DNA of 64,000 nucleotides from Euglena gracilis. Taxonomy: Eukaryota. The position numbers and the translations under genes are program-made. The notes under the pieces were generated by a model, which ran no database searches, was not told the origin of the DNA, and saw nothing but the letters and a program-made list of their open reading frames with translations. The first letter of the stretch is position 1. The number at the start of each line of letters is the position of its first letter. The DNA lies in the NCBI GenBank assembly GCA_039621445.1, contig CP154954.1, positions 7,690,634 to 7,754,633 of the forward strand. Direction: 5' to 3'. This document shows, piece by piece, positions 1-47,000 of this stretch.

Positions 1-455
1 GTTTGCAGTGCGTTCAACCGAAGTTTCGCAAACAGGGCGTCACATATCGACCCCGGAAGGGAGGTCCAGGTCGAAGGTTGGAAATCTGGGCAGGCTGAAA
101 AAAGGCCACTGGTTGAACCCACAGCTGGAACGAGGTCGGACTCGCGTTGAACCGGACACCAAAAGAAAAAGAAGGGAAGTCTGGGGTGGCAAAAAGCCAC
201 TGGCTTGCTGGACCAAAACCTCAACCCCTGGAGGATGGGGTCCACTTCAACGACGTCCTGCTGGCATATCTCCATTCGGTTTTCTGGCACACGAACCCCG
301 CAAACTTTCGCTCGGTGTGGTGATTACTTGCATGCAATGCACCAGTCCGCAGCAAATTCAAACGTTAGTTTCTGCAAGAAAAAAAGGGACACCTGGGGGA
401 AAAAAGGGAACCGGAAAAAAAACTGATGAATCACAAACCGCACGGAAAACCACAC

Positions 456-23923
<23,468 letters not shown>

Positions 23924-23935
23924 GGCGTGGCACGG

Positions 23936-23965
23936 CTGGTGGGGGGGGGGCACAGCAGGGGAGGG
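23936..23965 (-). promoter_or_regulatory. Putative spliced-leader trans-splicing acceptor of GCN1
   Basis: C-rich pyrimidine tract ending in CAG, 12 nt upstream of ATG 23923, with no upstream coding exon. Euglenid mRNAs are SL trans-spliced (established); this site is inferred. Confidence 0.55.
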
Positions 23966-25151
23966 CGGTCATGTGTGGTGCGCGGCGACGTTGCAACACG
24001 TTCCGCAGTTTTACCGCCCTGAAAAGTGTTCCGAGTGAAACCACAACAAGACCTCCCTTCCACCCAGGAAAGTATCACCTGACAAGCAAGCCAGCCTAGG
24101 TGGTAACTTCAAACTCCCAACAACATGACAAGTCGGCTGGTCCGGACCCCTGGCCAGGCGGGAACCTCACGGGAGGGGAGGGGCAACTTCTGGGGAGAAA
24201 CAGGAAGCCGTTCCTAGCACATAGCAGTCTGACAGACAGTTCACACTGGACGATTCACTAGACCTTCACCAATTATGGGACTGACCAGTGATGGGACTGC
24301 CTGCGTGCGCCACCTGTGGAACCTCAGGGAATCTGGGATCTGGAGAAAAATGTGGGAGAAAGGTCAAGGAGCTGGAGGAACATGAGTCCCATTTTTCAGG
24401 AATCCAACATTCATGCTGAATTCTGAAAGCTTTAAAAGTAAAAAAATATATACTTTTTTTCACCGGCCAGACAATTTTCATTCGATGCCTGGATGGCCCG
24501 CCTTTGGAAAATAGAACCTTAAAAAATCTTCAAATGCCTCAAAATACTTTTTAAAAAATACCTTTTAAAATGCCTTGATTTTATTGAAAATTTTCGGCTT
24601 AAAAAAGACTGCCTGCCACCGGAAAAATAGCCAAAATTGACAGCCTCCAAGGCGACAAATTCCCAAGGTAGGCAACACCACCACAGGGGTTCACAGGACA
24701 GGGGAACACTCAATTACAAAATTAGGAATCCCGTGGGGGGGGGGAGCAACTACAAATCAGCCATTCTGGCAAAATTGCCAGCTATGTTTGTGTATGGGTC
24801 TTTGGGATGGGGTTCTAGGGATTTGATTGGTTCAATGCCAAAAGGGATGCCAGGGGGTGTTTTCACGAAGCTATCCTTCACCTCTGCAGCCTCTGGCCTT
24901 TGAAAACGTTCACTCGGGAATAGTTTTATCAAATCGTCATAAATAGTTTTGTAACAATTATATGTGAGTGTCTGTGAGGCTTCATTTTCAAAAGCCCTGA
25001 GGGAGGGGAGCGCCTCAACCCCGGGTGTGCCTGAAACGCTTGGTGGGGGTGGTTTTGGGTCCCAAATGGACCTCTGAGCACAGTTGAGAAAACAGCATGT
25101 GAAGGAAGGCGCCCGCACAGACACACACCTGGAGAGACAGACAGCAGACAG

Positions 25152-25158
25152 ACAGGCA

Positions 25159-25247
<89 letters not shown>
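25152..25247. repeat. (GGCA)n microsatellite
   Basis: Directly visible. Confidence 0.95.
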
Positions 25248-25249
<2 letters not shown>

Positions 25250-25537
25250 ATACATGCAAACACACAGTCAGACACATGTGGACACACAAGAGCGAATTTC
25301 AGACCCAATGGGGGGGGGGCAACACCAGGTGCTATGCCAATTCAAGGATCTCAACCCACCAAAAAAGGGAAGGGTCCGGCGTTGTGCAAGCAAGTGCAGA
25401 GGAATGATTCAGTGTGAAGGGCCGGATGCGGTCAGTCCTGGCCTGGCTGAGACCGGAGCAGTGACAAACCCGTTCAATAGGGACGAAAGAAAGAAAGGAG
25501 TGAGTGGAGAGGGGGGGGGGGGGGGGGCGGGCGGGAG

Positions 25538-25908
25538 CATAGATTCACTTAGTGACTCCCGGGGAGGGGGTGGGCATTTTCCCCCAGGCGGAAACCCACC
25601 CGCCCGCCCTTTGAAAACCCCAGCAACCCACAACCCTCCCCCCCCCAGGGGGGTTCACCCACCCACTCACCCATCAAAAATTCACCCAAAATCATTCAAA
25701 ATCGGCCAAGAAACCGTTTAAAATTCTCCTGGCCAACCTCGAAAGTGCCCTACCCCCCTGCGTGCCCCACCCCCCCCCCCCCGGAGGTGCCCCCGACCTT
25801 CCTAAGAAAAAGCCTGGCCCAAACCCACCCACCCACTCTCAAAAAAACCGCCCCCCCAACCCGGGGGGGGGGGGGGGGCGTGGTTACACTAGGGTTAAGT
25901 AAAATATG
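25538..25908. mobile_element. MITE (CAT..ATG-ended family) just downstream of the zinc-knuckle gene stop
   Basis: Ends CATAGATTCACTTAG / CATATTTTACTTAAC. Perfect TSD GGCGGGAG at 25530-25537 and 25909-25916. Related ends near 13465, 18568, 28548 and 29746. Confidence 0.8.
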
Positions 25909-25971
25909 GGCGGGAGGGAGGCAGTGACATGTGTGGTCACGCAGCACAGCGGGCCAGGATGGGGGGGAGGG

Positions 25972-26181
25972 TCAGCGCTTCTTCCGCTTCTTCTTCTCCT
26001 TGGACTTCTTGGCCTTCTTCTTCTCCTTGCGGCGCTTCTTCTTCGCCCGCCGCTTGCGGTCGCCACTGCTGGAGGAGCTGCTGGACTCGGTCCATTCGCC
26101 ACTGCAGGGCACGCGCGTGCACACACACATACACACACGCGCGCGCGCGCACGCACGCACACACACGCACGCGCGCGCGCG

Positions 26182-26260
<79 letters not shown>

Positions 26261-29200
26261 CTCGTTGCTGCTTTTCAGTTAGGGGGGGGGGGGTGTCCGG
26301 GGGTCCCCCAATTGGGGGGGGGGGGGGAGCACATTGGAAGTCAGGTTTTAATGAGTTTCTGAGAGGTTTATATATTATATTTATTTTGTTTCAGAAAACC
26401 CAAAAAAGCCAAAAAAAACGAGCATTATTGGCAGGCTTTGCCCTACCCCCTGCCCAAAGCACCCACCCCCGCAGGGGGTGTGAATTCCCTTAAAAGAAGC
26501 CTGTTGAGGGTCCAAAAAAAACTTTCACTTCGTTCAGGTCAGCGGGAGAATTCTCCATGATAGCGATTATTGTCACACCCCCATTGTCTTCGACACCCAG
26601 AATTGTGCATCACCCATCCCAACCCCGACAAGCTCCCACAACAGTCGAACGTACCTTCCCCACCCGGCCTACCCATAACAACCGTGCGACCATCATTAAA
26701 AAAAAAAAGCACCCACCTTCTGCTAGCTAGTGCTGCTCAGCAGACCCCCCCTCCTGTGGGGGGGGGGGGTCCACTGGATTCTCCACTGGCCATTGTTTGC
26801 ACTAGCTGCAGTCAAGCCCCCCCCCCCCCCTGGAGGTTCAGCAACCCTTATTGAGAAACCTGCCCACCATAGAGACCATATATAGAGTTTCCAGAAGTCG
26901 CATTCAACCCTGCGAGGGGGGCCAACCGGGTGGGGCCAAGCTGCCTTCAACAGCCCAGGGGCCAACGGGGGGGGGAGGGTCAGCAGTGGCCTGCTTAGAT
27001 GCAGAGCTGGAGCTGGAACCGGAGCTGCGGCGGCGCTTCTTGGCCTTGTCCGCCTTCTTGCGGCGCGCTGCGCCGCTGTCAGGGCCGGGGGGGGTGGGCG
27101 GTGGCTGTGCGCCGAGTGCGTGGACCCCAGGTGGTCATCCTTGCATCGCCCAATTCCATGTAGGGAAGGCGTGGTGGGGGGGGGGGGGGCGACGCTTCAA
27201 GCAGCCACCCATAGAGTTTCCGGGACAGGCCATTGCTTAAGGACCCCCCCCCACGGGGGGGTTGTTCCACTGGCCAGCCAATTTGCTGGACACTGGAAAA
27301 AAGCCACTGCTAAACCCCCTGCCTCGGGGGGGGGGGGGGTCTGGGTCCCCTCCAACTGGAAGAAAATTTCCTTGGCGTGCGCGTCGAGGTGAAAATGAGG
27401 TATTGGATGCATTTTTTGAGCGGTTTTGTTCCAAAATGGCCAAAAATGGGCATTTCTGGCAAGTTTGGGGGTCCAGAAAAAAAATTCCCACTAACTGGCC
27501 CTGCTGACAGACCCCCCGCCGCTAGGATTTCCGCTGGCCAGATTTGGACTAGCTTCAGTCCAGCCCCCCGGGTACTGCGAACCCTGAGCAGTGGCCTGTT
27601 CTGAGATGATGGCTTGGCCTTGGCAACAAGAGTGGCGGGGGACATCGCACTGTTGCACGTCGGCACAAGGCACTACGTTTGTGGTCAAATTTCCCTAGGA
27701 TTCCAGAGTGTCCGACCCCCCTCCAGGGGGTGACTAATTGGCTTTCGGGGGGGAGTGACTGACTGGTTTCTGGAGGAGTGGAAAGGTGGTCGGTTAAGAA
27801 AAAAACGGTACACCCCGAATCAAAGCACACCTTCAGCTGGAATGCGCACAACATATGAACAAGGCTGTGTATATTTTGGTGGGCAGGGGCAGCTACAAAG
27901 AAAATCCCTTGCCTGCAAAGAAGCCTGGGTCCATCCAGAATATGCAACTGCAAATCCAATGGGTTGCCGAGTTTTAGGCATTGAAGCAAAAAAAATGCAA
28001 TAAAGGACGGCCAATAATCCTAAATACACAACAATCTGGCTTTCCATTGAAAATATTTACCAGGTTTACAAATGAAAATTTAAAGCTCAATGATGGATGA
28101 GAAGGCATCAACCTTTGAACCGCAAAAACACGCAAAAAAAAAAAAGCAAAAAAATCTGCAGAAGCACCAGACTACAAAAAAGAACAACCCAATTGGGCAT
28201 TGGGTTCTTCCCTCAGGAAACAGAATTTTCGGCAGCTGACTCAAATCGCGCATGATTGACACCACTGGACATTGCAGGTTGCAACCTGCAGGTCACCGGC
28301 ACTATTTTTGTTCTGCAATGATCTTGGACCAAATGCGATGGATTTATCTCCTGTCCATTGACAAGACTTAAAAAAAAAGGCAAAACTTTTCAGCACCTTT
28401 GGTGCCGGGTCACTTTAGTGGCATTTTCCTGATCCCCCCCCCACCCGGGAGGTAGGGGGTCTGGACCAATAACCAGTCAGTCACTCTGAAAAATCACTCA
28501 TCCACCCTCCCCGGGGGGAGAAGTCGGCCAGTGACTAAGTGATTGTATGTTCTGGGGTTGAGAACGCCTCTGCTCGCTCTCACTGCTCCCATCATCTGAG
28601 CTGCTGCTGCTGCTCCGTCGTCAGCCTCAGAAAGGTGGGTTCTAGTGGGGCAAGGCGAGGCTTTTCAGCCTTTCACAGGTGCACCGGTGGATCGACTTTT
28701 ACCCGTACTTTCTGGTGCTTTTTTTTTCAGATAGTGAAAAATGTACACTAAAATACAAAAAAAATATCTGATGTGTGGTGCAAAATCTTGGTTCGATAAT
28801 CTGGATCTATTAAATGTCCAAGATACAAATGTGGGTGTGGGTGTGTGGGTGTGGGTGTGTGTGTGCATGTGAGCGGGCGTGCGTGCGTGCGTGCGTGCAT
28901 GTGTGCGTGCATGCATGCGTGCGTGCGTGCGTGCATGTGTGTGTGTGTGTGTGCGCGCGCGTGTATGTGCAAATGTGTGTGTGCGTGCGCGCATGCGTGC
29001 GTGCGTGCGCGCGCGTGCGCGTGTGTGTGTAGTGTATACTCAAAGCCAGGCCTATTGCAGTTGACATGGATACTCTTCTGCAAATTGTCACCAAAGGGTT
29101 GGTGACAATTGGTGACAGACCAAGATGGCAAGTTCAGGGTCTGAGAGAACCTCTCGTGTGATAGAAAACCTTCACCCCCTTGGCTTGATAATTTGACACC

Positions 29201-32200
29201 AAAAAAAAATTCAAACCCACATTTTTCGCAGTTGCCATTTCTTTAAACTTCAGTTCATACAAAAGTTGAACTTCATTGTAGTGTTTTTATTGAGGCAATA
29301 ATGAACATTCCCATGAGAAATATCAAAATATATCAAAATATAAGACATAATAACATAAAACACTAAATATCTATACTAAAACTAATAAAATACTAAATAT
29401 CAAAATATACAAGACATCTGCAACCCTCATCCTTGCCGCCAGTGGAGCCTCGGGCGTCCCGGGGCGCCTCAGGGGCCCAATGCGTCTGGGGCGTCTGAGG
29501 CAGCAGACCGGGCCCCGGTCCCCACCCCACCGCCCTGGCCGCTTCAGGGGCTCCGGGATGAACACCACCTCCGTGCCGTCCGCGTCGTCGGGGACCGCCG
29601 CCCGGGGCGGCGGGGGCGAGGGCGGGCGGCAGGGGCACGGCTGCATGTTGGCCAGGGGGGGGCTGGTTAAAAAAAAAACTATTCCGCCGCTTATCCTGAC
29701 CCGTTGTACGAGAAGGCCTAGTGGGGTGGGGGTCGACTCCCACACCATAGATTCACTTACTGACCCGGGGGGGGGGGCTTTTCCCGGGCCTTGGAGGGAT
29801 GGGGTCCCCCACCCCCAACGAGGCCTTCCCAAATTTCTGGGGGTGCCGACTTTTAGGTCAACGTTTTCCTTGTGTGGTGCTGTGCTGGGTGTGTGGCATA
29901 GATTCATAGAAAGATGGATGGACAGGCTACCAAATGGGACTTTGCAAGGGGCGATTCCTTCGGCGCCACCGTAAAACTGGGAAGCAGTGGGTGACCCCCC
30001 CCAACCCCACCACCAGATGGGACCCCCCTCCACCGCCACCCACCGGAAATCCAAACGTGCGATTCCGCCTCCTCCCTCCCGCTATGGGGGCGGGGAGGCC
30101 ACCCCGTCCTCCTCCTCCTCGGCCTCTCTCTCCACACAGGCAGCCCTGGGCGGGGGGCGTAGTACTGCTCGTCGCGCTGGAACTGGGCCCCCCCGCGGCC
30201 TCGGAGCCCGTCGAGGGCGGGCCCCTGCCAAGCCGGCGTTCCGCGGCGTTGGCCCACTGTTTCGTGGCGGAGGTTGACCCTCCGGGGCAGAGGGCAAACA
30301 CACCCGGCAATGAGGGGGAGGATGGCGTTTGGACGGTGCTGGCACGGCGCGGTACCCCGCATCTGGTTTCTCGAAACTCTTGCAGCGGCTCCGCAGCACT
30401 CCAGCCGCTGTCCCTTGACAGCATTGTTTCCATTAAAAGTGGTCCGCACCCACCCACCCACCCACCCACCACCCCTGGGGGTACCCGGGGGAGGGCTTGG
30501 AGGGACCCACTTTTGGGGGTCAATTTTGGGGTCAAAAAGTTTTTGCGCTTCGAAACCCCCCCCTCCAGCGGGCTACCACTCGGCCAGAACTCCACCAGGG
30601 GGGGGGGAGAAACTGCGCATGGGCCAGTCAAAAACTGCACTGCAAAAAACTGCAAAAAAAACCTGCAAAAAAAAAAACTGCAAAAACTGCAAAAAACTGC
30701 ACTTCAACAAAAAAAAGACAATAAACAAGCTGAAATGGTGTGCATATGCAAAACAACGTAAATTGTGACCACATGAGCACGCCCCAATTGATCTAACTTT
30801 TTTGCACAGCTTTGGAGCTGATGAAGACAAAAATGGAAGCAGTCCATCAAGGTACACTGTATACGGTATTTCATACACTGAAATGCAAGTCATGTGTTTG
30901 GATGCCGGGTCACACCGACCATCATGCCCACAATGATGCCAAATGGTTTCCTCTCTAAATATGGAAAAACTGCACATAAACCCATACACAGAAATATTCG
31001 ATGCTTTCAATTCTTGCAGGGGATGTTCAATTTGGAACTTTCGGTCCATTGAGTGGTGTGACATGGGATGAGCATTGGAATGGCATGGCAATGCAAAGAA
31101 AACATCATCGCAACATGCTTTATCGGGTTCTTTTAATCAGAGGAGAGGTCAGACGATGAAGATAAGAAGGAGGAGGAGGACGGGGAAGTGGAGGTTACTG
31201 TTGAACGAAATGTACTCGCAAGCAACCTTCATCTGACACATCGACGTTGAGTCTGCCTTTTCCTTTAGACATACCCTTCGCACGTCGCTTTGTGCCTTTG
31301 TCGGCTCGCTTGAGCCTGAAGCATGCACGCCGAGCACTGAACTGTTGCGCTGCTCAACAACGTCAGAACTCCAACGTAACCGACGATCTGCCAAAATCAT
31401 CCTCAGCCGACTGAATGCAGACTCAACAACTGCATCAGACGGGGTCAGAGCAAGGTCATGCGCAAAAAAATATGCATCAGGTATTGGGGTGGAACGAAGA
31501 CGTCGGTTACCTGTTGTAATTTGCGCACTCCTTTGACGACTGCCCTCACAACCTTCAACATTGTTCAAACCTCCTACAATGCAAAGGTTGGAGAGGGAGC
31601 AATTTTGGTTGGGGAGTAATTGTGGCCTTGTCGCCAAAACAACAAGCACCAAAAAATAAACATCTTAGGTTTCCTCAAAACTGGAACAAAAAAAAGTTGC
31701 AAAAAAACTGCAAAAAACTGCAAAAAACCCAAAACGTGAAAACTGCAAAAAAAAAACTGGAAAAAATGTATAGTACATATTTTCCACCTCCCTGACTCCA
31801 CCCCCCCTGGGGGCGGACCCACCCACGCCCCCATCCCCCCCCCTGCCTTGACGTCTCAATCGTGTCCATGTGTCGGCATAATCTGCGCAGTGTTCTGCAA
31901 AGGAAACGAAGCAAAAGTTTTTAAATAAATTCACAGATCGTTGCTGCTCGCGGTGCTGGCAGCCACCCAATCGGGGGGTTTGGCCTTCTCCTCAACATCA
32001 CTGTCAAGAACACAGGCCCCCCTCCAGCGACCATGTTGGACGTAGGTGGTCAGGCCGACCGCCGCAGGCATTATGACATTTTAAGCCACCTTAAAAACCC
32101 TTAAAATGCCCCAAAATGCCTTCAAATACCTTAAAAAATTCGGACCAGCAGAATTTACTCCGAAAGAGCAAAAAACAAAACGCCAAAGTTCCAGCCAACA

Positions 32201-33822
32201 AAAAACAGCCCAACTCGGGGAAGAAAAATGATTTTCGGCATCAATAGAACATTATCTATCCAAACTAAACTCAAAATTCCCAGCCGTCCCAGCCGTCCAG
32301 GGGGGCACCGACCTGTTAAAACCCTTCTGCGTCGGTGACACCGTGGGACCAGGGCGTTTTTTTAACAACCCCCCCCCCTTAGTTGCACTAAGGCTTCTTG
32401 TCTGTTTATGGCCGGCGCTAACTTCAACCCCCCCCCCCGGGGGGGGGGGTCAGCTCAGAGGCTGGAAAATTTGCGCTAGCTGGAATAAGGCTGCTGGCTG
32501 ACCTCCCTCCCCCCCCGGGCTGGAGCTGGACCCGACCTGGGGCCGAACTGGGTCCCAAAAAATCGAGAGTGCAAAAACGTTCAAAAAAACTGCCACTTAT
32601 GCAAAAAAAAATCAATTTTTTGACCCCAAATATTTCCTGGCCAGGCCAAATCTGACCCATTTTCGCCCCATTTTTGGACCATTTTTGTACCCCCAAAAAC
32701 GAAAACCCGTTACTGTCCAGCTGCCCAAAGGGCGGCTGGAAAGATAAAATAATGTCATTGAGGGGGGGGGGGCGGGCGGAAAAAGGCCTGCTGCGAGCCA
32801 GACCCCGCCCCGGGGGGGGGGGGGTCAAATTTTCTTAAGCTACACGCTGCGTGGGACGTGCGGCGGAAAGGGGGGGCCTGGGCCGCGTCGGGGGCCTTCT
32901 CCTCCTCGCTCGAGACGCTGCTGGTGCTGCTGGGCATCTCCCACCGCTCCGGCATCGCCTTCCCCGACGACTCCGCAGCCCGGTCCGGCCCCGACGGCCG
33001 CATGTGGTTGGGGGGAGGCCGCCGCCGGGGACCACCCGGGCGGTACGGGAAGGCCGGGTGGGGGTGGGACGGTCGACCCCTCGATGGCGCCGGGCACGGA
33101 ATCCGCATTTGTGGCCTAGAAACCCCGGGTCACAGGAAGGGGTGGTGGGGGACTGGTCCTGCCCACCCATCCACCCACCCACCAGGATGGGGGGGGGGGG
33201 GTCGACCCACCCGCCACGCATTGGGTTTTCCCAGCCGGGACCCATAGCCCCAAAGTGGCGGCTGAAACGGCCTGGGGTGGGAAGAAGTCACAGCGTCTTG
33301 CCTTCTCTGCGGGGCGAGGCGCCATGAAGAACTGAGCTTAAATAACCTGCAAGCATCACAGGTGGAGACCTGTGATTTCATAATTGTGCGTGAATGAGTA
33401 TAAGTAACGTATGAAATCATTATGAATTTTTTTTTAATTTATATTTTGAAAAAAAATTGAAAATGATAAATTGAGTGAGTAATAATGAAATATGTAATAA
33501 TAATATAATAGTAAAAACAATATATACAATAATAATAACAAGAACAAGAACAACACCAACAATAATAATTGCAATTGTAATTGTTATTGTAATTGAAATT
33601 GTGATCGTATTGCGATCGCGATCGTGATCGTGATCATGATCGTAATCATAATCATAATCATTATCATAATTGTAATCATAATCAGAATCAGAATCAGAAT
33701 CAGAATCAGAATCAGAATCAGAATCAGAATCAGAATCAGAATCAGAATCAGAATCAGAATCAGAATCAGAATCAGAATCAGAATCAGAATCAGAATCAGA
33801 ATCATAACAACAGCAACAACGA

Positions 33823-33853
<31 letters not shown>

Positions 33854-33865
33854 AAGAAGAAGAAG

Positions 33866-33897
<32 letters not shown>

Positions 33898-35950
33898 TAA
33901 ACAGCTTGCAAACTTGCAGAGGAAGTGACTTTAGGGCTTGGAATGTTAATTGGAAATACAAAGCAAACACCAGCGGCCAGTCTATCCGGGCGCCGGCCTC
34001 ACCGCGGCACTGGAACGTGAGGTGGCCTGTGGCGCCGCAGCGCTTGCACGTCCCCTTCGTAGCCGCCACCTGCCCCGCCCAGGGGTTATCTTAAGGACCT
34101 GGGGGGGGGGGTCCCATGGGCCAGCTGGAAGAAGGAGTTGGCTGGACCCCCCCTGGGGGTGGGGGTCCAGTGGGGGGGTCCAGCCAGCTGGAAGCTGGAC
34201 CCGGCAGGTATCCCAAAAAAAAGCCAAAAAAAAGCCGAAAGCCAGCTGGGTTTGCATTTTTCAGCCAAAATTTGGAGGAAAAACCCCCAAACCCACCCAA
34301 AAACGCCATTTCCCACCATTTTTCATTTTTCAAGAATGTTTGCCATTCTGGCTTCTTCACCGGCTGGCCTGAACTTTCTGTCAGCGGACCCCCTGGGGGG
34401 GGGGGGGGCTGGGAGGTGCTGGCTGGAAAAAAGGTGCTGGCTCCTGGGGGGGTAGGGTCCCCTCCAGCTTTAGAAAACCCCTGGCCCCGCCGCCGCGGCG
34501 TGTGTCTTCGCCAGGCTGAGCAGCCCCTTGTGGTGCCAGGGCGGAGGGGCCCCAGGCTGGGGAGGGGGGACAAAAATGACAGGAAAAAATGACGGGGAAA
34601 ATGACGGGAAAAATTGACAGAAAAAAAGGACTGGAAAACCCATGAAAAAAAAACGGCAAGAAAAAAGACGGGAGAAACTGACAGAAAAAAACTGACGGAA
34701 AAAAACTGATGGGAAAAAAAGACAGGAAGAAAAGATGGGAAGAAATGACGAGAAATACTGGATGGCCATCTTTGTTTCCCGTCATCTTTGTTTCCCGTCA
34801 TCTTTGCCCAGACACACTTCAAAAACATTTCCACACACAACGTCACCCACCAACGAGTCCATGAATCATCTAGTGGATCAGTGGCACAAAGCAAATGATG
34901 TTAAATTGGCGGTAAGCAAACATAAATCATCAGGTTGGGTTCAGGTTTGATAAAAGGGCAGGTGGGGGACACCCCCCCCCACCTAAACAGTGGCACGGTC
35001 TGGGAGTCGCTGATTTTTGGCCCAGCACCAAAAATTTTCGGTCTGGCCCACCAAAAACGGCCAAAAGTGCCATTTTGGGCAATTTTTGGGCAAAAATTTG
35101 TCAAAAAATGCAAAAAAAAAAAAGGCGCAAAGCGCCGGAAGGAAAAGTTGACCTTTGGGGAGGGGTCCCGGTTACCCCCCCCCCCGGTGGGTCCAGACCC
35201 CTCTTGGCAGGTGGGGGGTCCGAACGCCCCCCTCCGGTCCAGGAGGGCCCGCCTAAACCCCGAACACCCTCCTTGTATCAAACCCTGGTCGGGTTGCAGA
35301 AGCGCCGGAAGGAAAAGTTGACCTTTGGGGGGGGGGTCCCGGTTACCCCCCCCCGGTGGGTCCAGACCCCTCTTGGCAGGTGGGGGGTCCGGACGCCCCC
35401 CTCTGGTCCAGGAGGGCCCGCCTAAACCCCGAACACCCTCCTTATATCAAACCCTGGTCGGGTTGCAGCTTGTTTAAAAATCGGACTTCAAAATGCGTTG
35501 CACCGTCCCCTTTTTCTGAACATCCATCCCCAACTGTCCTCAAATTCTATGACAACCCATTTCAATTATCCTCCCCCACCTCCCCCCACCTGGGGGTAAC
35601 TGTCCTCAATGAGAAAACTGCCCTGGAACAATTGTACTTACCAACATGACCTGCATGTTCCTTCCGAAGGGTGGTCACAAGGGTGACAAAAATTCAGGTT
35701 TATGCGGGATTCCATCCTGTCGAAACGAAAGTGGGAAAGGTCGGCTGGGTTGCGTGCCAAAAAAGGGACACTCGCACATTCCGACTGGCCCCACCCTGCA
35801 CACGTGTCGTAGGCACTGCTGCCCGCGGCCTGGGCCCTCCGCGGCGGGCTTCGCGGTGGCGCCCATCGTCTGCCACACCGCGTCGCCCCCGCCGGCGGAG
35901 GACATGTCGAGGTAGTTGTTGCGCCAGAAGTCCGGGGCGTACTTCGGCAT
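25972..35950 (-). CDS. CXIP4/SREK1IP1-like CCHC zinc-knuckle protein with Ser/Arg/Lys-rich C-terminus (putative splicing-associated factor)
   Basis: Exons: 35802-35950 ([24 protein letters not shown]; 1-nt frameshift near 35836), 34487-34531 ([11 protein letters not shown]), 34004-34074 ([18 protein letters not shown] zinc knuckle), 32853-33009 ([18 protein letters not shown]), tentative small exons in ~30100-32344, 29541-29640, 28568-28622 ([16 protein letters not shown]), 27602-27649, 27209-27220, 26997-27075 ([15 protein letters not shown]), 25972-~26100 ([19 protein letters not shown] at 25972-25974). Motif order matches plant CXIP4 as recalled ([31 protein letters not shown]). Confidence 0.8.
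26113..26254. repeat. (CG)n/(CA)n microsatellite
   Basis: Directly visible. Confidence 0.9.
27226..27598. mobile_element. MITE that forms nonconventional intron 27221-27601
   Basis: TIRs CAGGCCATTGCTTAAGG / CAGGCCACTGCTCAGGG. TSD TTCCGGGA vs TTCTGAGA (6/8). Shares internal motifs with 4451-4814 and 34080-34483. Confidence 0.75.
28830..29030. repeat. (TG)/(TGCG) microsatellite
   Basis: Directly visible. Confidence 0.9.
31348..31488 (-). pseudogene. hAT transposase relic, C-terminal dimerization-like segment
   Basis: [29 protein letters not shown] resembles the hAT dimerization motif (L.iP.ssa..Er.FS....i.t.rR.rl). AT-richer than host exons, with no intact ORF. Confidence 0.6.
32350..32849. 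mobile_element. hAT-like MITE that forms nonconventional intron 32345-32852
   Basis: Ends CAGGGCGTTTTTTTAA / CAGCGTGTAGCTTAA (imperfect TIR). Perfect TSD CGTGGGAC at 32342-32349 and 32850-32857. Confidence 0.8.
33640..33894. repeat. (GAATCA)n followed by (GAA)n
   Basis: Directly visible. Confidence 0.95.
34080..34483. mobile_element. hAT-like MITE that forms nonconventional intron 34075-34486
   Basis: TIRs CAGGGGTTATCTTAAG / CAGGGGTTTTCTAAAG. Perfect 8-bp TSD GCCCCGCC at 34072-34079 and 34484-34491. Flanking exons join in frame. Confidence 0.88.
34532..35801 (-). other. Nonconventional/intermediate intron 1 of the zinc-knuckle gene
   Basis: 5' GTG-CAGGGTGGGG pairs with 3' CCCCTCCGCCCTG-GCACC|A. 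Join AYDT-Y-KGLL. Confidence 0.8.
34942..35456. mobile_element. hAT-like MITE (family of 39126) with tandemly duplicated right end
   Basis: TIR CAGGTTTGATAAAAGG / CAGGGTTTGATACAAGG. TSD GTTGGGTT vs GTCGGGTT (7/8). The right ~170 bp, including the TIR, is present twice (ends 35287 and 35456). Confidence 0.8.
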
Positions 35951-35976
35951 GGCGCCCGGGGGAGGGGGAGGGGTGC

Positions 35977-36030
35977 CTGCGTGTGTGTGTGTGTGTGTGT
36001 GTGGAGGGGTGGGCGGGTGGCAGGCAGGGG
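35977..36030 (-). promoter_or_regulatory. Putative spliced-leader trans-splicing acceptor of the zinc-knuckle gene
   Basis: C/CA-rich tract ending CACGCAG, 26 nt upstream of ATG 35950. Confidence 0.5.
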
Positions 36031-38041
36031 TGGGGGAGTGAGTACTGCGCCTGCTGGGACTGGAGGACACTTTTCAACTCTTTTTTTTTTCAGGAACAAA
36101 ATCTTGAATTGCCGTGTTTTTTAAATTAGAATAGGGAACAGGAGAGAGTCAGAGGTAATGCAACGGTTTTTCACAGACTCAATTGCCGCAGCCCATATGG
36201 GGCCCAGGAAATGGGTCTTTTGTCACGTTTAACTTTTAATGATTCATCGTGTGCAAGTATTCACATAATTGCAGCAAATCCATCAGCTGAATGCGCAAAG
36301 GAATCACTGGCGCAATCGTGGAAAACCTCCACTTTGTTCCCACTGTTGTGCAAGTAGTCCTGTGCCAGGCTCCTTTTAAAGGAAGTTCACCCCCAGGGGG
36401 TGGATGCTATGGGCAGGTAGGGGGGGCAGGACACTTTCGACCCCCCGGAGGGGTCAGGTTTTTGGGGTGTTTCTGTTATTGACCCCCCCCCCCCCCCGCG
36501 CGCCCCCCGGCGCGGGGCCTGAAAATGGTCATTTTCAAGGGAAAATTGGAAAGTTGGTAAGCACCGGGACCCAAAGCCGATCTCCTGGGGTGGGGGGTTC
36601 CTGCTGTGGGCATGCCCCATGGCGTCCCCCCCTCTCCCCCAGGTTGGAAAAAAGAAGCCTGCCGTATGCGCATTTGAGCGAATAGTCCCTTTGCGCGATT
36701 GTGCAACCAACATTTTAAGTCGAAGTCAATGGTATCGTCCAGCGCTCGGTCTCACCTGCCCCAAATCGCTCCGGCAACTCTCCCGAAACTAGGTTGCTCG
36801 TTATGGATTTGCGTCTTGTAAACCCCGCAGGTGCATATGCAAGTGTCTTGTCCATTGCCTCGGGTATGTGGTGCAACAACTGAGACACTTTTTTGACCAA
36901 CTCAGATGTACTGTACAAACACTTCCACTTATGAACGCCACTCACAGAAAGCCGCTCCCCACTAGGGCACTTTTTATCGACCCCCCCCTTCCAGGGGGTC
37001 CAGCTCAGATGCTGGCAACTCTGGCTGTCACCCCTCCAACCCCCCCCAGGGGTCCGGGGTCCGGGGTCGAACCAGGTACCAAAAAGAATCGAAACTGCAA
37101 AAATGTCCAAAAAAACTGACAATTACTTCTCAGCCCTTTTCCAACCCATTTTCGCCCATTTTTGACCTATTTTGTGGTCAAAAATGTCGAAATTCCAGAG
37201 GAGCATTGAATCTTCTCGATAAAACCCCATCAGGGTCGAACACCAAGCCGCACTCTGTAACAATGAGGGAGTTGTAAGTGGGGCAGGATTTGACACACTG
37301 AAATCCAGACTTTCCTGGATTCTGTAGTCTTCCTTATTCTGCAGTTAGCTGTGCAGATTATTCAAAGGCCATTGTTTGCTTTTTTCATGGTTTGGGAGAC
37401 ACAGTGGAGTGCACCTGAGGACATTTCATCCGTCGGGGGAATTTTTTCCACACAAAACATATTACTGGCAATGGCAGACTCCCCAGCAACGGTTGAAGAA
37501 TATGGCACCCATGTTCAACTCCGCACTTCAGGCAGCAATGAATTATGAGAGCCCTAAATTCTCGCAAACCAAGAACACAATTGAGCACGTGAACCCTTGC
37601 GGGTGCCCACTGGAGCCAGCGTGATTGGGTCGCAGAGGATTTGTGCCAACGGCGCACCTGTCGCAGGGCAGGAGGCTGTGTTGGCCGGAACACAGGATTG
37701 GCAAACAGGAGGCAATTACTGCCATTCGCCTCCCCCCCCCCCGACACCATGGACATGGCTAGATAGGTAGAGATATCTAGATAGACAGAGCATGGGCATG
37801 GCCATGCTCAGGCCGTGGCTTGGCGTGTACCGGCCCAAATGCCTGCCCAACACCCTCCCCGTGTCTCGCCACGGCTACACTGTACACCGCACTGATGCTC
37901 GCGCAGTCCCCTGCCCTGCCACGCTCCATCCGCCAATAGACTGTGGGGGGAGGGCAGCCCACAGCTCTTGGATGGCACGCGGCGCTGCAGTGGCAAGCGG
38001 AAGCCGGCGGACCGCACTGGTCAGTGAGAGGGCAGGGGAGG

Positions 38042-41000
38042 TCAGAAGGCCAGGGCGGTGGCGAGGGTCACACCGGCGGCGGTGTGGCCGGCGAACAGCC
38101 GCTGCAGCCCGTCCTCCGTCCCGAGCCGGTACTCCCGCTCCTCGGGGGGCACCGCCCGGCCCGGGGCATGCCCGTCCCGCCAGGCTGCATGCTGTTGGCC
38201 CCAAGACGGAGTGCATGGGAAGACCTGGTGGGGGAGACGGTGGACTCTCCCACCAGGGGGGGGGAGTCCATAAAAAAAAAACGCAAAAATACGGGGTTTT
38301 TGCTAAAAATTGGGGAAAAAAACGCGTCAAACACAAAAATAAACATGCCAAAAAAAAAGGCATTCATCGGGGTCCATTCAAAGACCAAAGCTCAGGGGCA
38401 AGAAGAGTCAGGCGGGACAAACAGATGGTCCACCGCAACCATGGGATGGGGGTGGAAAATGGTGGTTTCTGGGGCGATGTTGAGACGCCCTTTTAATAAA
38501 TGCAACAAAGCCGGCGGGGGGGGGGGGGGGACCAAAGGAGCACCACACCATTCCATTCCCTGGTTCAAGGTTTGGGAAACGTCTCCTAAGCGATACCTAG
38601 AAACACGTTCCCAACCCGCGGTTTGGCTGAAGATCTGTAGGGGGGTCAGGACGTTCAGGCCGGGTTGCGGACGACGGGGTGGCGGGCGATGACGTCCCTT
38701 GGCTGCCGGCCGAAGCAACGCTAATCATCCCGGGAAGATGTACCACAACAGCGGAGGACCGCGTGCCCTTTGAGGCCCAGCAAAGAATTCATCCTCGGAG
38801 GATCCAGCGCGATCCCTGTGTCCGGCACAGCACAACCGGGGGAGGGCCAACCCATCCACACCCAGGGGCACACAGGGGGGGGGGACCCACTCTTAAAGGG
38901 TAAAAAACCCCCTTTAGGCAGGGGCAAGCACCTATAGTTGACCCCCAGATTTTTGCCATTTTCGGCCATTTTCGGCCATTTTCGGCCATATAGGTGGGGG
39001 GTAAAGCTGCCTTAAAACTCTTTCATACCAACAATGCATTTTGATCATTCAGTCAACATGCAAGCAGTCGTGACAAGCTAACGCATCCAAGGAGGTCCTT
39101 TGGAATGGGTGCTCAGGGATTAAAGCAGGGTTCGATATAAGGACAGGTGGGGGGTGGTCCGGACCCCCCCCCCCCCTGCGGGCCAGGGGGGAGGGGGACA
39201 CCCCCCCACCTAAACAGTGGCGCAGTCCGGGTGACCGATTTTCAGCCCGGCGCAAAGCGCCGGGCCAAAAGTTTGACATCCAGCGAAATCAAAGCGCAAG
39301 CAGCACATAAACAAAGGAAGCTGGCGAGACATCGGCTGCAAAAGAACAAGCAAATAAACGTGCAGTGCAGGAGCCGAAAGAAAACATTTGGCTGTTGCAA
39401 CAAAAAAAATTACCAAAAACTCCGCCGGAGGAAAAAATTGCCCTTTTGGGGGGTCCTGGGTACCCCCCCCCCGGGTCGGTCCGGACCCCCCTGGCAGGTG
39501 AGGGGGGGGGGGGGTCCGGACCCCCCTGCGGGTCAGGAGGGGGGAGGGGGACACCCCCCCACCTAAACCATGTACGCCCTCCTTATATCGAACCCTGGAT
39601 TAAAGAGGTCAAAGAGCTTTTTGTTGCAATATGCAAACGCAAGGTTTTGGGAATAGGCTTCTTTTTTCTTGCCAGAGAGGCTCTTGTCCACTTTGGTCTT
39701 TTTTGCTGGGGGTTCTTGGGACGCTTCATGAGAGTGGTTGGCACATGACATGTTAACCACAATGGTGGGTGGCAACACCAAAACTGGTGCTTTTCTCTTC
39801 AAGCCTCTTGGCGTGGATGCTTTTCACAAACAACTTCCCCTCACCTATTCCAAACTTGATACCTCAAGCAACATTGTTTGATGGTGGCACTGTTAGATCC
39901 CATCCACTTGTGTGCAATGAACCTAATGCAGGAATCACACCTTTAACAGAGAAAAAAACACCTCGCATACTTACTTTGCCGGTTGCACCTTGTCACCACA
40001 ATTTTCTGAAATGCCATCAAAACCATCAGCTTTGGCCCAAATACCCCATTCGGAGGTGGTTCTTTGAGCAGCATGTGTTCCACAGTCAGGCATAATGGCA
40101 GGACAAGAGAGGCATGACTTCAAAGAAGCCTTGATGTAAAATTTCATCCGTCATGTTGAGACGATCGTCCGTCTGGATGTGGCGAAATTGGGAGAAAGTG
40201 CGCTCAGCTTGAGCGGCAGAACAAAAAAGCAAACATGTGATCGGCCCATAATGTTGAAATATTTCACTTATATCACTGCATCTTCTCCAGCATCTGCATC
40301 TTGTCCAATGTCTGCATCTTGTCCAGCATCTGCATCTTGAACAACATCTACATCTTGTCCAGCATCTGCATCTTGTGCAGCATCTGCGTCTTGTCCAGTG
40401 TCTACATCTTGTCCAATATCTGCATCTTGTCCAGCATCTGCATCTTGTACAGCATCTGCATCTTGTCCAGTGTCGACATCTTGTCCAGTGTCTGCACCTT
40501 GTTCAGCATCTGCATCCATTGCATCTTGTCCAGTATCTGCAAACTCTGCATCCACTGGCTCCCAACCTAGCAAAATGACCACAGAAACCCCAAAAAGACC
40601 ACAAAAAGCCTAAAATTGACCGCAAAAGGCCCCAAAAAGCAACCAAAATGACCTAAAATGGCTTCAAATAACCTAAACTTGCCCAAAAACGCCAACAATA
40701 TCCACAAAAAAAATTGTGAAAAATTACCCAAAATCACTAAAATGGCGCAAAACGACCAAAAATGCCATAAAATGTGACCCAAATTAGTTCAATATTTGCC
40801 AAATCAGTGCAAAATATCCCCAAAATTAGCAAAAATTGATCCAAATTGGCCAAGATGGGTGTAATACTGGAGATTTGTGGAGAAATTATCCCAAAAATGG
40901 GTTTAATTCTTCAAAATATACAAAAAAAAATGCCAGCGTCACCCTTGTCACCAAAATCTTTGGCCCAAATAACCCTTTCGGGGGTGGTTCATTGAGCAGC

Positions 41001-44000: not shown

Positions 44001-47000
44001 TTGGTATTCCTTTGGCATTCCTTTGCTTTGGTATCAATGTCATTTGGTTTATGAGACTACTTCGCAACATTCGCAAATTTACTGCGATTCGAATTATTGC
44101 ATAACTGAAAAAATAACGCCCAAAAAAAAACGCATCGCTAACCAACGACCTTCGATCTCTAAGCCAATTCTCAGCCAGGAACAGAATAAAAAAAAAGCAT
44201 CATTGTCCCCTTGGCTTGGGGTCTCTATGAAGAAAGGAATTTCACCACGGGGAGATGGAGAACAGGGGCTTTTTTTAAGACCGGGGGAGTCCCCCCCCCC
44301 CCACCCACCCCCTGGGGGCCCCGGGGGGGTCCCGAGGGACCCACTCAATTTTCCCGAAAATGGCCAAAAATCGCAAAAAATGCTAAAAATAGCTCCTTTT
44401 CACAAATTTTCGGCGCCTTCGGCGCTGAAAAGTACACCCCACTCCCCCTGGGGGGACCCCCCGAGAGGCGGGGGGGCTCGGCCGGACCCCACCACCCTAA
44501 CAAGACTAAAAAAAACCCTGATGGAGAAATCAAGCATCCTTAGACCATATTTACTTTGAGGACCCCCGCAACACAGTGGTACAATTTTGGAGGCACGCTG
44601 CCATCCCCTGGAGTGATATGTGGAGGACGAGGAGGGGGTCAGGCCGGGAGCGCCGCAGACTCCTCCCATAGTACCTGCCATACATTGCCAGGCTCCTGCA
44701 TGCGAGCGCTCAAGCGGTCCGCCACATCTCGTTTGAGAGCACAGAAAACAGATTCACGAATAGAACCTCGAGAAACCACAAAGAACCCGAGAAAGCAAAA
44801 GCAGGTTCAGATGTTTATGAGATTTGCATAAAATCTGTTTACATAATATGCATGGACACATGCAAATGAAAATGGAATCATCACATAATTATCTATTGAT
44901 CTATTGTCTTTTTTAATTACAGTATCTATTTCATATTCAATATCCAATATGTGCATGTAACATGATAATTGAAATTGTAACAATGGACGATTTATTTCAT
45001 TAAAAAATCAACAACACAAGAACACACGCGAAAATGACAAAACATATGACTTTTCAGAGCAACTTCCCAGGCCACGGGGATGCGGCGCACAGTGCAGCTC
45101 CCGGGCCTCGTGGGGTCCCACCGTGCAGCCCGTGTTGAGGCCATGCTCCCGGTCGAAGTCTGCCAGCCGGGCGGCACTGAAGTCCTTCGGGGAGTACCAC
45201 CGCACGAAGTCGACGAGGCACGGGTCGAACGGGTTGGCCGCCTTGAACGCCTGCATGTCCGACTGTGGTTGAGAAGAAGGGAACAGGAAACAGCAAACGC
45301 GAGACACGACCAGGAATGCAGCATGAACCCTAAAAAAAGCGACCCAAAAAAAATGCAAAGGGGCATATTTTCCCCCCGAAAGGAGTAGTAAGATCAGCTG
45401 GGCGAGTTGGGCGGGTGTGGGAAGTTGAGCAGGTTTTCCAAGGGGCAGACTCATCAGGGAACACGTACACATAGCATGTTACAAGATGGTGTATCAACAT
45501 ACGGCACAGGACACAAAAGACATCGCAAAAGATGCACAGACGCACACACGATAAGCAAGAACGATCTTCTGAGCAAGAAAGGCAACAAAACACATCAATC
45601 TGGAAGACAAGTGAGCCGTCAACCACATGTTTCAAAAATGATGTGATTCCATTCGGGCCTTAGGTTCTTGACACCATTTCATATATTTCATATTTCATAC
45701 CATTTCATATTTCATTTCATATTTCATATTTCACCACCAATGCCATTGGCAGCGTGCTCCGTCTGACAAAAGGAACTGGTGGCAAATGCAATTGTCTGTC
45801 TGTTGGGTGTGGGAATATCGTCCGTGATGCCACACCAACAGGAACGCCGCCCACACACCAAAACAAAATTGCACACGCCTGCAGCGAGCCAGTCTGCAGC
45901 CGAGTCCGCAGTCGGTGGGCCTCGCGCGAGGTGCCGAGGCGGGAGAACACCTCCTGCTGCTGGCCCACCATGTCCTCCGTGACTGGCAGCGGCTGCTGCG
46001 TAGCCGACAGGAGAGGTCGGCATTTCCAAGGCTCGGTCGCACCGGAACACCAACATCGTTTTCGGTGATTTGCACCATTTTCTGTTTATTTAAACCATAC
46101 CTTCATTCTTTGTTTCTTGTTTTTTTTCCTTCTTGTTTCTTGTTTTTATTTTTACCACTTTCTGTGCCTGAAAAGAATACATTGGTCTGTTGCTGTTGAA
46201 TGGGGTCTGTGGATGTCGAGGAGTGAATTATGGCCCTGCAAGCATCTGCACAAAAAAAATGAGCGAAGTGAAATGAAAAATGAAAACAAAAAAATTTGAG
46301 ACAAATTTCGTTGTTGTTTTTTTGCAACCTCTGCGCGCAGCTCCGGAAGAGAAAAAAAGTAAATTAATAATTCAATTTGGGACTTTGGTTTAAGGTTAAG
46401 GGGGTGGAGATGATGGGTCCGCATCACCCCAGCATTGGATCTGGACCACCCTCCGTCTTACCCCCCTCCCGGGTCGGGCTGTCGGGACCCCTCCCGCTAC
46501 CACCAACCTCAAAACCGAAGCTGGTTCCATCACTGGACGTCCCTCAGTAGTGATGTCAGCATCCCCAAACTTGGACAAACGGTGGGCTTCCATGGCATTC
46601 CCTGAGTTGTGTCAGAAAACAAGGACGGGTGCAGGTCAAACATGCACTCAGACACAGTTGAAGAGCTGGCCGCATGGCAACCCTGCTGGGGCTGGCGCGG
46701 TTCAGAAACTGGCCCCGACCCTACCCCGCGGACCAGCATTCCCCGCCGTCCATTCCCCACCCAGGTGACTTGCAACCGACACTGACACTGACGTTCCGCG
46801 CGCCTTTCGCCGCGGTGTGCTTCACCGAATTTCCCAAATTTATCACTGTGGACCTGTCAACTGGTTTGCGACCGAAAAACAAACTGAGCCCCATTCTGGT
46901 GGTGCAACCCGGTTCCCACTTCCACGGCACATCTGTGCCCCGAACCTTGCAAACACCACAGGCCACCTTGCCACATGGCAGCGGGCCCCTCGGCGGGATG

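What the first reader, a model, noticed from the sequence alone, without database searches (positions are those of the whole stretch)
34072..34491. Nonconventional introns are hAT-type MITE insertions: the 3+5-nt splice geometry equals an 8-bp TSD
Seen: intron 34075-34486 is a TIR element (CAGGGGTTWTCTWAAG at both ends) flanked by a perfect 8-bp direct repeat (GGCGGGGC on the coding strand). Splicing 3 nt before the 5' CAG and 5 nt after the 3' CTG removes the element plus exactly 8 nt, one TSD copy. This restores the pre-insertion reading frame ([15 protein letters not shown]). Established: euglenid nonconventional introns have CAG at +4..+6 pairing with CTG at -8..-6, and hAT transposons typically make 8-bp TSDs and often have CAG/TAG-initiated TIRs. 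Inference: the splice rule acts as a seamless RNA-level excision system for hAT MITEs, so each new insertion can become an instant intron in either orientation. A general MITE origin for these introns has been suggested before; I cannot verify whether the explicit 3+5=8 hAT-TSD link has been described.
Basis: partly seen in the sequence, partly recalled or inferred. Interest (0 to 1): 0.92.

Follow-up and report, generated by a model that had tools for sequence, protein, structure and literature searches.

The report
Transposon insertion spliced out as intron
A 404-base mobile DNA element sits inside the coding sequence of a Euglena zinc-knuckle gene and is cut out of the RNA, along with one copy of its 8-base insertion scar, by Euglena's unusual non-GT-AG splicing, so the message reads as if the element had never landed.

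Summary
Observation confirmed. Window 34080-34483 is a 404-bp element with 14/16-complementary CAGGGG termini and a perfect 8-bp duplication (34072-34079 = 34484-34491). RNA reads from two studies plus one probable-RNA contig skip exactly 412 nt (element + 8) here, with 8 nt of positional ambiguity. The probable DNA run shows no such joint. An independent transcript-derived protein reads straight across the junction.

The intron fits the published Euglena nonconventional splicing code N3-CAG...CTG-N5|R. The 3+5 spacers equal the 8-bp duplication, so excision leaves no scar.

- Four other CAG...CTG elements in the window, outside the mapped exons, also have perfect 8-bp duplications; two of them belong to one family.
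- Exact 8-mer flanks number 11, against 1.67 in shuffles.
- Two more of the nine introns whose boundaries I could fix show 7/8 and 6/8 identity in the predicted register; the other six are at or near chance.

Interpretation partly supported. This intron is a transposon insertion. The hAT assignment rests only on duplication length and end motif, with no transposase seen. The claim that all such introns arose this way remains open. A MITE origin was proposed in 2013. I did not find the explicit 3+5=8 link in print. Interest is moderate to high.

The parts
34072..34079 (.). Left copy of the 8-bp target-site duplication (GCCCCGCC on +, GGCGGGGC on the coding strand)
   Evidence: Read; identical to 34484-34491; exact-flank scan
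34080..34483 (.). 404-bp non-coding TIR element (MITE-like), CAG...CTG termini
   Evidence: X20 summed contig depth is 8,296-26,045 inside the element against 24-200 in flanking single-copy bins. 11 X20 contigs carry T at 34088
34080..34095 (+). Terminal inverted repeat, left arm CAGGGGTTATCTTAAG
34468..34483 (-). Terminal inverted repeat, right arm (reads CAGGGGTTTTCTAAAG on the minus strand)
34484..34491 (.). Right copy of the 8-bp target-site duplication
34075..34486 (-). Nonconventional intron 2 (412 nt) in the register that fits N3-CAG...CTG-N5|R; one of 9 mRNA-equivalent registers
   Evidence: RNA joint; P0002; registers
34487..34531 (-). Exon 2 (codons ~50-64, ...[15 protein letters not shown])
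34004..34074 (-). Exon 3, encodes the CCHC zinc knuckle ([14 protein letters not shown])
   Evidence: PF13917 at residues 71-95 of P0002
34532..35801 (-). Intron 1 (1270 nt): nonconventional, fixed boundaries, GTG-CAG...CTG-GCACC|A; carries pieces like the 39126 element
   Evidence: Joint with both = 0 in X21 (18 reads), X24 (3) and X1
35802..35950 (-). Exon 1 with start codon at 35950; the window has one extra base near 35832-35833 relative to all reads
   Evidence: (table 4)
29636..30148 (-). Core of intron 6 (intron 29631-30151, 521 nt): CAGGGCTGC / CACGGCTGC ends, flanks CCCCCGCC vs CCCCTGCC (7/8) in the 8-bp TSD register
32350..32849 (.). 500-bp CAG...CTG element with perfect 8-bp TSD CGTGGGAC, nested inside intron 4 of the same gene
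20662..20930 (.). 269-bp element, TIR 14/16, perfect 8-bp TSD TTCGCAAC; same family as 44263-44520
   Evidence: 71.5% identity over 249 columns
44263..44520 (.). 258-bp element, perfect 8-bp TSD ATGGAGAA; same family as 20662-20930
39126..39597 (.). 472-bp element, TIR 16/16 (CAGGGTTCGATATAAG), perfect 8-bp TSD GATTAAAG; very high copy
   Evidence: X20 depth up to 291,527; 41 X20 contigs, 9 X1 contigs and 10 X24 reads diverge right at 39597/39598

Best explanation
Window 34080-34483 is a non-autonomous cut-and-paste DNA transposon (MITE-like). It has CAGGGG... terminal inverted repeats and an 8-bp target-site duplication. It inserted into codon 65 of a Euglena CCHC zinc-knuckle gene on the minus strand, just upstream of the knuckle.

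The gene still works because the pre-mRNA is processed by the euglenid nonconventional splicing system. That system recognises the paired CAG:CTG ends and cuts at fixed distances: 3 nt upstream of CAG and 5 nt downstream of CTG, before a purine. Those two cuts fall at the same position (between bases 5 and 6) of the two duplication copies. Exactly element + 8 nt (412 nt) is removed and the pre-insertion message is restored.

Shown: the element's anatomy; the 412-nt skip in RNA and its absence from the probable DNA run; the in-frame product; the multicopy nature; the 8-bp duplication in other copies and families.

Inferred: the actual cut register in this intron; DNA transposition as the insertion mechanism; the enzyme. 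The fixed 2-nt offset of the terminal helix is compatible with the published suggestion of an RNase III-type cut followed by ligation.

The superfamily is hAT-like by duplication length and CAGGG ends only.
For: Anatomy.

RNA: joint 34071->34484 skips 412 nt, both = 8. X21 has 16 reads with 16 starts, X24 has 3 reads, X1 has 1 contig, and X20 (probable DNA) has 0.

Independent transcript protein P0002 spans the junction in frame. tblastn and k-mer mapping give the exon map.

Code fit (register s5): GGC-CAG...CTG-GGCGG|G, helix 12 of 14 positions paired. None of the 9 registers is GT-AG or GC-AG. End duplex is -25.2 kcal/mol against -12.2 +/- 3.1 for shuffles; 1 of 200 shuffles did as well.

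Published code and spacer genetics: PMC12501133, abstract and sections 5, 8, 11.

Transposon nature:
- Exact 8-mer flanks at CAG...CTG pairs number 11, against 1.67 +/- 1.27 in 100 shuffles (max 6).
- Among 38 pairs with TIR >=13/16, 3 have exact 8-bp flanks and 0 have exact flanks of 4-7 or 9-12 bp.
- Among 693 pairs with TIR >=11/16, 5 reach >=7/8, against 0 in a shifted control.
- Elements 20662 and 44263 are 71.5% identical over 249 columns yet have different duplications.
- X20 depth inside the element is 8,296-26,045 against 24-200 in the flanks, and 11 X20 contigs match the left end.
Against: The cut register cannot be observed: 9 registers give the same mRNA.

The minimum-free-energy fold of the whole intron does not recover the terminal stem, and its z-score is only -1.52.

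No full-length second copy of this element is in the window. Its multicopy status rests on summed contig depth, which shared G/C-rich sub-repeats can inflate.

No transposase was found: 10 of the 43 ORFs of >=220 aa were scanned against Pfam, with no transposase domain.

No empty site was seen. No DNA contig lacks the element, and no orthologue was found.

For the wider rule, 6 of 9 mapped introns show only 0-4/8 identity in the duplication register. One intron (g2b) shows no canonical geometry at all.
Confidence: 0.82

Rival explanations
1. The match 3+5 = 8 is a coincidence, or a survivorship filter. Cut sites are set by the enzyme's fixed offset on the terminal helix (position +n pairs with -(n+2)), independently of any transposon. 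Elements with 8-bp duplications are just one source of such introns, and the only one that can survive in exons. Most nonconventional introns arose otherwise.
For: 6 of 9 mapped introns have 0-4/8 identity in the duplication register, close to the shifted-register mean of 2.7. Intron 4 keeps the helix register but places CAG/CTG one base further in, so element + 10 is removed. In g2a the CAG/CTG lies one base further out, so element + 6 is removed. Intron 3 uses GAG:CTC. The code tolerates N5-6.
Against: 3 of 9 introns have >=6/8 identity in exactly the predicted register, against 4 of 216 shifted comparisons. The window's CAG...CTG elements show 8 bp and no other flank length. The E. gracilis consensus CCAGG at +3..+7 and CCTG at -9..-6 (PMC11170887, passages) resembles the CAGGG element ends. 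An 8-nt repeat flanks a newly gained E. agilis intron (PMC4770533, passages).
Confidence: 0.35
2. The element belongs to another superfamily that also makes 8-bp duplications (P-like, Merlin or Mutator-like) and not to hAT.
For: Two Merlin families with 8-bp duplications are reported in E. gracilis (PMC8101967, passages). From recall, P-type ends (CANRG) also fit CAGGG. No hAT transposase or dimerisation domain was found.
Against: Merlin ends are described as starting with GG. All five elements here start with CAG immediately after the duplication. From recall, the hAT end motif YARNG fits CAGGG.
Confidence: 0.4
3. The 8-bp direct repeat is a by-product of double-strand-break repair that captured filler DNA, as proposed for the E. 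agilis gapC intron, and not of transposition.
For: Milanowski et al. 2016 read their 8-nt repeat in this way (PMC4770533, abstract and passages).
Against: The repeat directly abuts 14/16-complementary terminal inverted repeats. The same end type carries exact 8-bp flanks at four other unrelated sites, and two members of one family carry different flanks. The sequence is multicopy.
Confidence: 0.04

Closest known systems
Euglenid nonconventional introns (Milanowski et al. 2014, 2016; Nomura et al. 2025 code 5'-N3CDG-/-CH'GN5-6|R)
   Same: No GT-AG ends. CAG at +4..+6 pairs with CTG at -8..-6. The downstream exon starts with a purine. The ends base-pair. A direct repeat makes the boundary 'slidable'. 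The intron is removed from RNA.
   Different: Here the intron is also a discrete repeat-family element, with defined terminal inverted repeats and a perfect 8-bp duplication. The papers I read propose that origin but do not show it.
gapC intron 4 of Euglena agilis ACOI 323 (Milanowski et al. 2016, PMC4770533)
   Same: A recently gained nonconventional intron flanked by an eight-nucleotide direct repeat.
   Different: The authors attributed it to double-strand-break repair. No repeat family or inverted-repeat element was described in the passages I read. Its sequence table is in a supplement I could not open.
Transposon-derived introns ('introners') of Micromonas and Aureococcus, Amoebophrya, and Fritillaria
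   Same: Non-autonomous DNA elements with inverted repeats and target duplications become introns on insertion (review PMC11282704, passages; PMC7789003, passages).
   Different: According to the review, the Micromonas and tunicate cases are removed by the spliceosome. The Euglena system is thought to be spliceosome-independent and releases circular introns. The Amoebophrya repeats are 3-5 nt, not 8.
hAT elements spliced from transcripts (maize Ds; Giroux et al. 1994)
   Same: An element class with 8-bp duplications is removed from mRNA after insertion into an exon. I saw only the reference listing; the rest is recalled.
   Different: By recall, Ds removal uses cryptic spliceosomal sites and is usually imprecise. 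Here removal is exact and uses the element's own ends.
Merlin transposons of Euglena gracilis (PMC8101967)
   Same: DNA transposons with 8-bp duplications in the same species.
   Different: Merlin ends start with GG and the elements encode a DDE_Tnp_IS1595 transposase. The elements here start with CAG and are non-coding.

Membership tests
Euglenid nonconventional intron (Nomura 2025 code) | No GT/GC-AG boundary in any compatible register | tested here: met
   The 9 registers start and end GG..TG, GC..GG, CG..GG, GG..GC, GG..CG, GG..GG, GC..GG, CC..GG, CA..GC
Euglenid nonconventional intron (Nomura 2025 code) | N3 then CDG at the 5' end; CH'G then N5-6 at the 3' end | tested here: met
   GGC-CAG ... 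CTG-GGCGG at register 34486->34075 (s5)
Euglenid nonconventional intron (Nomura 2025 code) | Purine as first base of the downstream exon | tested here: met
   G at 34074 on the minus strand
Euglenid nonconventional intron (Nomura 2025 code) | Intron ends base-pair | tested here: met
   TIR 14/16. Duplex -25.2 kcal/mol; 1 of 200 shuffles did as well. The full-length MFE fold does not show the stem
Euglenid nonconventional intron (Nomura 2025 code) | Removed from mature RNA | tested here: met
   19 raw RNA reads from two studies plus 1 contig; transcript-derived protein
Euglenid nonconventional intron (Nomura 2025 code) | Excised as a circular RNA with full-length ends | not tested
   No back-joint was listed among the 15 joints shown (279 not shown). 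This property is known to me only from review text
hAT superfamily (non-autonomous member) | 8-bp target-site duplication | tested here: met
   Perfect 8-bp flanks at 5 elements; no other flank length among high-TIR pairs
hAT superfamily (non-autonomous member) | Short terminal inverted repeats with YARNG ends (motif recalled, from no call) | tested here: met
   All 10 ends start with CAG; 8 of 10 start with CAGGG
hAT superfamily (non-autonomous member) | Target preference nTnnnnAn (recalled) | tested here: inconclusive
   T at position 2 in 2 of 5 and A at position 7 in 3 of 5 duplications, read on the + strand. The sample is too small
hAT superfamily (non-autonomous member) | Cognate autonomous element with the same ends that encodes a hAT transposase | not testable with these tools
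   No genome is held. 10 of 43 long ORFs in the window were scanned, with no transposase domain
Merlin superfamily | Terminal 5'-GG-3' and 8-9-bp duplication (PMC8101967) | tested here: not met
   The duplication length fits, but the ends start with CA and not GG

The most novel reading that the evidence does not exclude
Euglenid nonconventional splicing is, in effect, an RNA-level excision system matched to one class of DNA transposon. Its two cuts fall at the same position (between bases 5 and 6) of the two 8-bp duplication copies. Every CAG...CTG element with an 8-bp duplication is therefore born as a scarless intron, in either orientation, whenever duplication base 6 (or the complement of base 3) is a purine. 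This would explain several published facts at once: most Euglena introns are nonconventional, about 69% of them have 'slidable' boundaries, both junctions show a Y|R bias, and the spacers are 3 and 5 nt. It also predicts that the sliding distance has a ceiling at 8.
Probability: 0.4. Interest if true: 0.85.

Novelty: new member of a known kind. Interest (0 to 1): 0.68.

Why it matters
The origin of euglenid nonconventional introns is stated as open in the papers I read. [quoted passage not shown]'. A 2025 paper says 'origins ... remain unclear'. The 2013/2014 paper notes that no transposable elements had yet been identified in euglenids.

This locus is a concrete case in which one such intron still carries the full signature of a cut-and-paste insertion: defined inverted-repeat ends, an exact 8-bp duplication and multicopy relatives. 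RNA evidence shows that the cell removes element plus one duplication copy.

The equality between the genetically measured spacers (3+5) and the duplication length turns the transposon hypothesis into a precise prediction. It can be checked on the hundreds of thousands of already annotated introns. It also points to which transposase family to look for.

Tried and rejected
- No whole genome is held for this window, so the genome-wide register test could not be run.
- The look-up of sequencing runs: no RNA holder listed. I used raw RNA runs added by species label and contig runs guessed as RNA.
- Only 33900-40250 was laid. Elements 20662, 32350 and 44263 and introns 3-9 have no read evidence. 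Introns 3-7 rest on protein P0002 alone.
- My first guess was that 32350-32849 is an intron of its own, giving a C-terminus ...RRTSHGV.... P0002 refuted this; the element is nested inside the 878-nt intron 4.
- Introns 8 and 9 could not be fixed, because the window and P0002 differ by amino-acid changes there.
- The full-length RNA fold gave no terminal stem and z = -1.52.
- BLAST of the focal element against the window found only itself.
- Pfam scan of 10 of 43 ORFs >=220 aa: no transposase.
- Rfam on 32000-36200: nothing.
- Homologue search with P0002 residues 1-135 returned only P0002. No orthologue was available to test for an empty site.
- Earlier scan notes: none.
- The X20 joint 39121->39611 skips 489 nt, not the 480 expected for an empty site of element 39126. 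I read it as cross-mapping between repeats.
- Six of the 11 exact 8-mer hits have weak inverted repeats (4-8 of 16) and are near the chance level of 1.67. I do not count them as elements.
- Literature searches for the explicit link found none. Guminska et al. 2021 (J Mol Biol) is not in the library, and supplements were closed. These include the sliding-distance data of PMC12501133 and Table S3 of PMC4770533.
Full report
**1. What is in the sequence**

On the + strand, GCCCCGCC occupies 34072-34079 and again 34484-34491. The 404 bases between them begin CAGGGGTTATCTTAAG and end with the reverse complement of CAGGGGTTTTCTAAAG, so 14 of 16 positions are complementary. The repeat finder reports arms of 17 nt at 88%. 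The degenerate motif occurs 3 times in 64 kb at up to 2 mismatches, against 0.14 expected; 1 of 100 shuffles reached 3.

**2. It is an intron, and the removal is exact**

I laid two raw RNA-seq runs from different studies (X21, X24), one contig set guessed to be RNA (X1) and one probable DNA contig set (X20) on 33900-40250.
- A joint from 34071 to 34484 skips 412 nt, with 8 nt that fit either side.
- It is seen in 16 X21 reads with 16 different starts, 3 X24 reads and one X1 contig (depth 144.5).
- It is seen in no X20 contig.
- 412 = 404 + 8.

Independently, a search with the downstream exon found a 272-aa protein that EukProt labels EG_transcript_22677 (P0002). It reads ...[38 protein letters not shown]... 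straight across the junction. It carries a zf-CCHC_3 knuckle (PF13917) at residues 71-95. The element sits in codon 65.

Mapping P0002 back gives ten exons on the minus strand, from 35950 down to 25975. All nine registers from 34072-34483 to 34080-34491 give the same mRNA. The actual cut position therefore cannot be read from the mRNA.

**3. It fits the published nonconventional code**

Nomura et al. 2025 (PMC12501133; abstract and sections 5, 8 and 11 read) defined 5'-N3CDG-/-CH'GN5-6|R by knock-in genetics.
- The 5' spacer tolerates no length change.
- The 3' spacer prefers 5 nt and tolerates 6.
- Register 34486->34075 reads GGC-CAG...CTG-GGCGG|G, with 12 of 14 positions of the terminal helix paired.
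- None of the nine registers has GT-AG or GC-AG ends.
- The two ends form a duplex of -25.2 kcal/mol, against -12.2 +/- 3.1 for shuffled partners; 1 of 200 shuffles did as well.
- The full-length minimum-free-energy fold does not show this stem, and its z-score is only -1.52.

**4. It is a transposon insertion**

Three lines of evidence point the same way.

(a) Flank length. I scanned the window for CAG...CTG pairs 40-4000 bp apart with identical flanks of length k, each k being an independent register.
- At k = 8 there are 11 pairs, against 1.67 +/- 1.27 in 100 shuffles (maximum 6).
- Five of the 11 have good inverted repeats: 20662-20930, 32350-32849, 34080-34483, 39126-39597 (16/16) and 44263-44520.
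- The other six have weak repeats and are near chance.
- Among the 38 pairs with TIR >=13/16, three have exact 8-bp flanks and none has exact flanks of 4-7 or 9-12 bp.
- Among 693 pairs with TIR >=11/16, five reach >=7/8 identity, against none when the right flank is shifted by 3.

(b) Family relations. Elements 20662 and 44263 are 71.5% identical over 249 aligned columns but have different duplications, TTCGCAAC and ATGGAGAA. These are two insertions of one family. All ten ends share CAGGG-type termini.

(c) Copy number.
- In the probable DNA run, summed contig depth is 8,296-26,045 inside the focal element, against 24-200 in neighbouring single-copy bins.
- 11 contigs match its left end with T at 34088, which would make the inverted repeat 15/16.
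- For element 39126, 41 DNA contigs diverge exactly at its last base.

The other four perfect-flank elements lie outside the mapped exons. One of them is nested in intron 4 of the same gene. The 8-bp duplication is therefore a property of insertion, not of splicing.

**5. How far the rule generalises within the window**

I detected 11 introns and could fix the boundaries of nine: seven in this gene (I1-I7) and two in the next gene (g2a, g2b, from reads). I8 and I9 stayed unresolved.
In all six the next exon starts with a purine.
- I4 and I6 keep the same helix register only partly. g2b does not fit.
- I3 uses GAG:CTC in the same geometry.
- Identity between the 8 nt before +4 and the 8 nt after -6 is 8/8 (I2), 7/8 (I6), 6/8 (I5), 4 (g2b), 3 (I3), 2 (I4), 2 (I7), 1 (g2a) and 0 (I1).
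- In 216 shifted-register comparisons, only 4 reach 6.
- I6 also has matching ends, CAGGGCTGC and CACGGCTGC.

So three of nine introns carry a duplication-like signal in exactly the predicted register, and six do not. That is what old insertions would look like. It is also what a mixed origin would look like.

**6. Mechanism**

Shown:
- Paired CAG:CTG ends.
- Removal of element + 8.
- A constant register in which +n pairs with -(n+2).

Inferred: the cuts fall between bases 5 and 6 of both duplication copies. The excised stem would carry a 2-nt 3' overhang. That is the geometry I recall for RNase III products. An RNase III cut followed by ligation has been proposed for such introns (PMC12621601, passages). 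Circular intron products are reported in review text. I did not test either.

**7. What is known and what is new**

Already in print:
- MITE origin proposed by Milanowski et al. 2014 (PMC3935182, abstract and passages), and repeated in 2016, 2018, 2024 and 2025.
- The 2024 review notes 'TSD-like' repeats and CAG/CTG at +4..6 and -8..-6.
- The 2016 paper reports an eight-nucleotide repeat at a newly gained E. agilis intron but attributes it to break repair.
- The 2024 E. gracilis survey gives the consensus CCAGG at +3..+7 and CCTG at -9..-6.

None of the eight searches found a paper that states spacers 3+5 equal an 8-bp duplication. None assigns these introns to hAT or shows one as a member of a TIR/TSD repeat family. 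Guminska et al. 2021 is not in the library, and supplements were closed.

**8. hAT?**

An 8-bp duplication and CAGGG ends fit hAT, by the recalled YARNG motif. By recall they also fit P elements. Merlin elements with 8-bp duplications are reported in E. gracilis, but their ends start with GG. No transposase domain was found in the 10 of 43 long ORFs I scanned. The superfamily is open.

**Verdict**

Noticed in passing
window 35832-35833: The window carries one extra base in exon 1. It is left out in 25 of 27 X21 reads, 3 of 3 X24 reads, the X1 contig and the X20 DNA contig. P0002 needs the deletion to stay in frame. This is probably an assembly indel.
   Followed up: partly
window 36483-36508 and 38510-38530: Many RNA reads join these two places on opposite strands: 175 and 90 X21 reads for the two joints. 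Loose ends there are poly-C/poly-G, and RNA depth is locally high (about 20-30). This may be an inverted G/C-rich repeat pair about 2 kb apart, or cross-mapping from other loci.
   Followed up: no
window 39126-39597: Very high-copy element. X20 summed depth reaches 291,527. It has a perfect 16/16 inverted repeat and the 8-bp duplication GATTAAAG. Pieces of the same family lie inside intron 1 at 34961-35026, 35109-35287 and 35303-35456.
   Followed up: partly
window 33010-34003: Intron 3 (994 nt) follows the 3+5 geometry with GAG:CTC in place of CAG:CTG (GGT-GAG...CTC-CCCCC|A). This falls outside the published CDG/CH'G code. It also holds long (AATCAG)n and (AAG)n microsatellites at 33621-33895.
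   Followed up: partly
the five 8-bp duplications (20654, 32342, 34072, 39118, 44255): Read on the + strand, base 6 is a purine in 5 of 5 and base 3 a pyrimidine in 4 of 5. Nine of ten element-orientation cases would therefore meet the purine-at-exon-start rule. This could be a palindromic target preference that explains the published Y|R junction bias, but the sample is far too small.
   Followed up: no
window 27226-27598 and 56567-57047: Two further CAG...CTG pairs with decayed 8-bp flanks. The first has TIR 13/16 and flanks 6/8, and lies inside intron 8 of the same gene. The second has TIR 11/16 and flanks 7/8. They are possibly older insertions.
   Followed up: no
window 28576-28620 and 26997-27077: The window differs from P0002 by amino-acid changes in exons 8 and 9 (SSES vs SSGS; KKRRR vs KKGRR). 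These are allelic, strain or paralogue differences, and they prevented exact mapping of introns 8 and 9.
   Followed up: partly
window 37660-37920 and 38143-38671: Two introns of a neighbouring minus-strand gene, supported by reads. The first has a 13-bp near-perfect terminal helix in the canonical register, with AGG:CCT at +4..+6 / -8..-6. The second fits no register of the code.
   Followed up: partly
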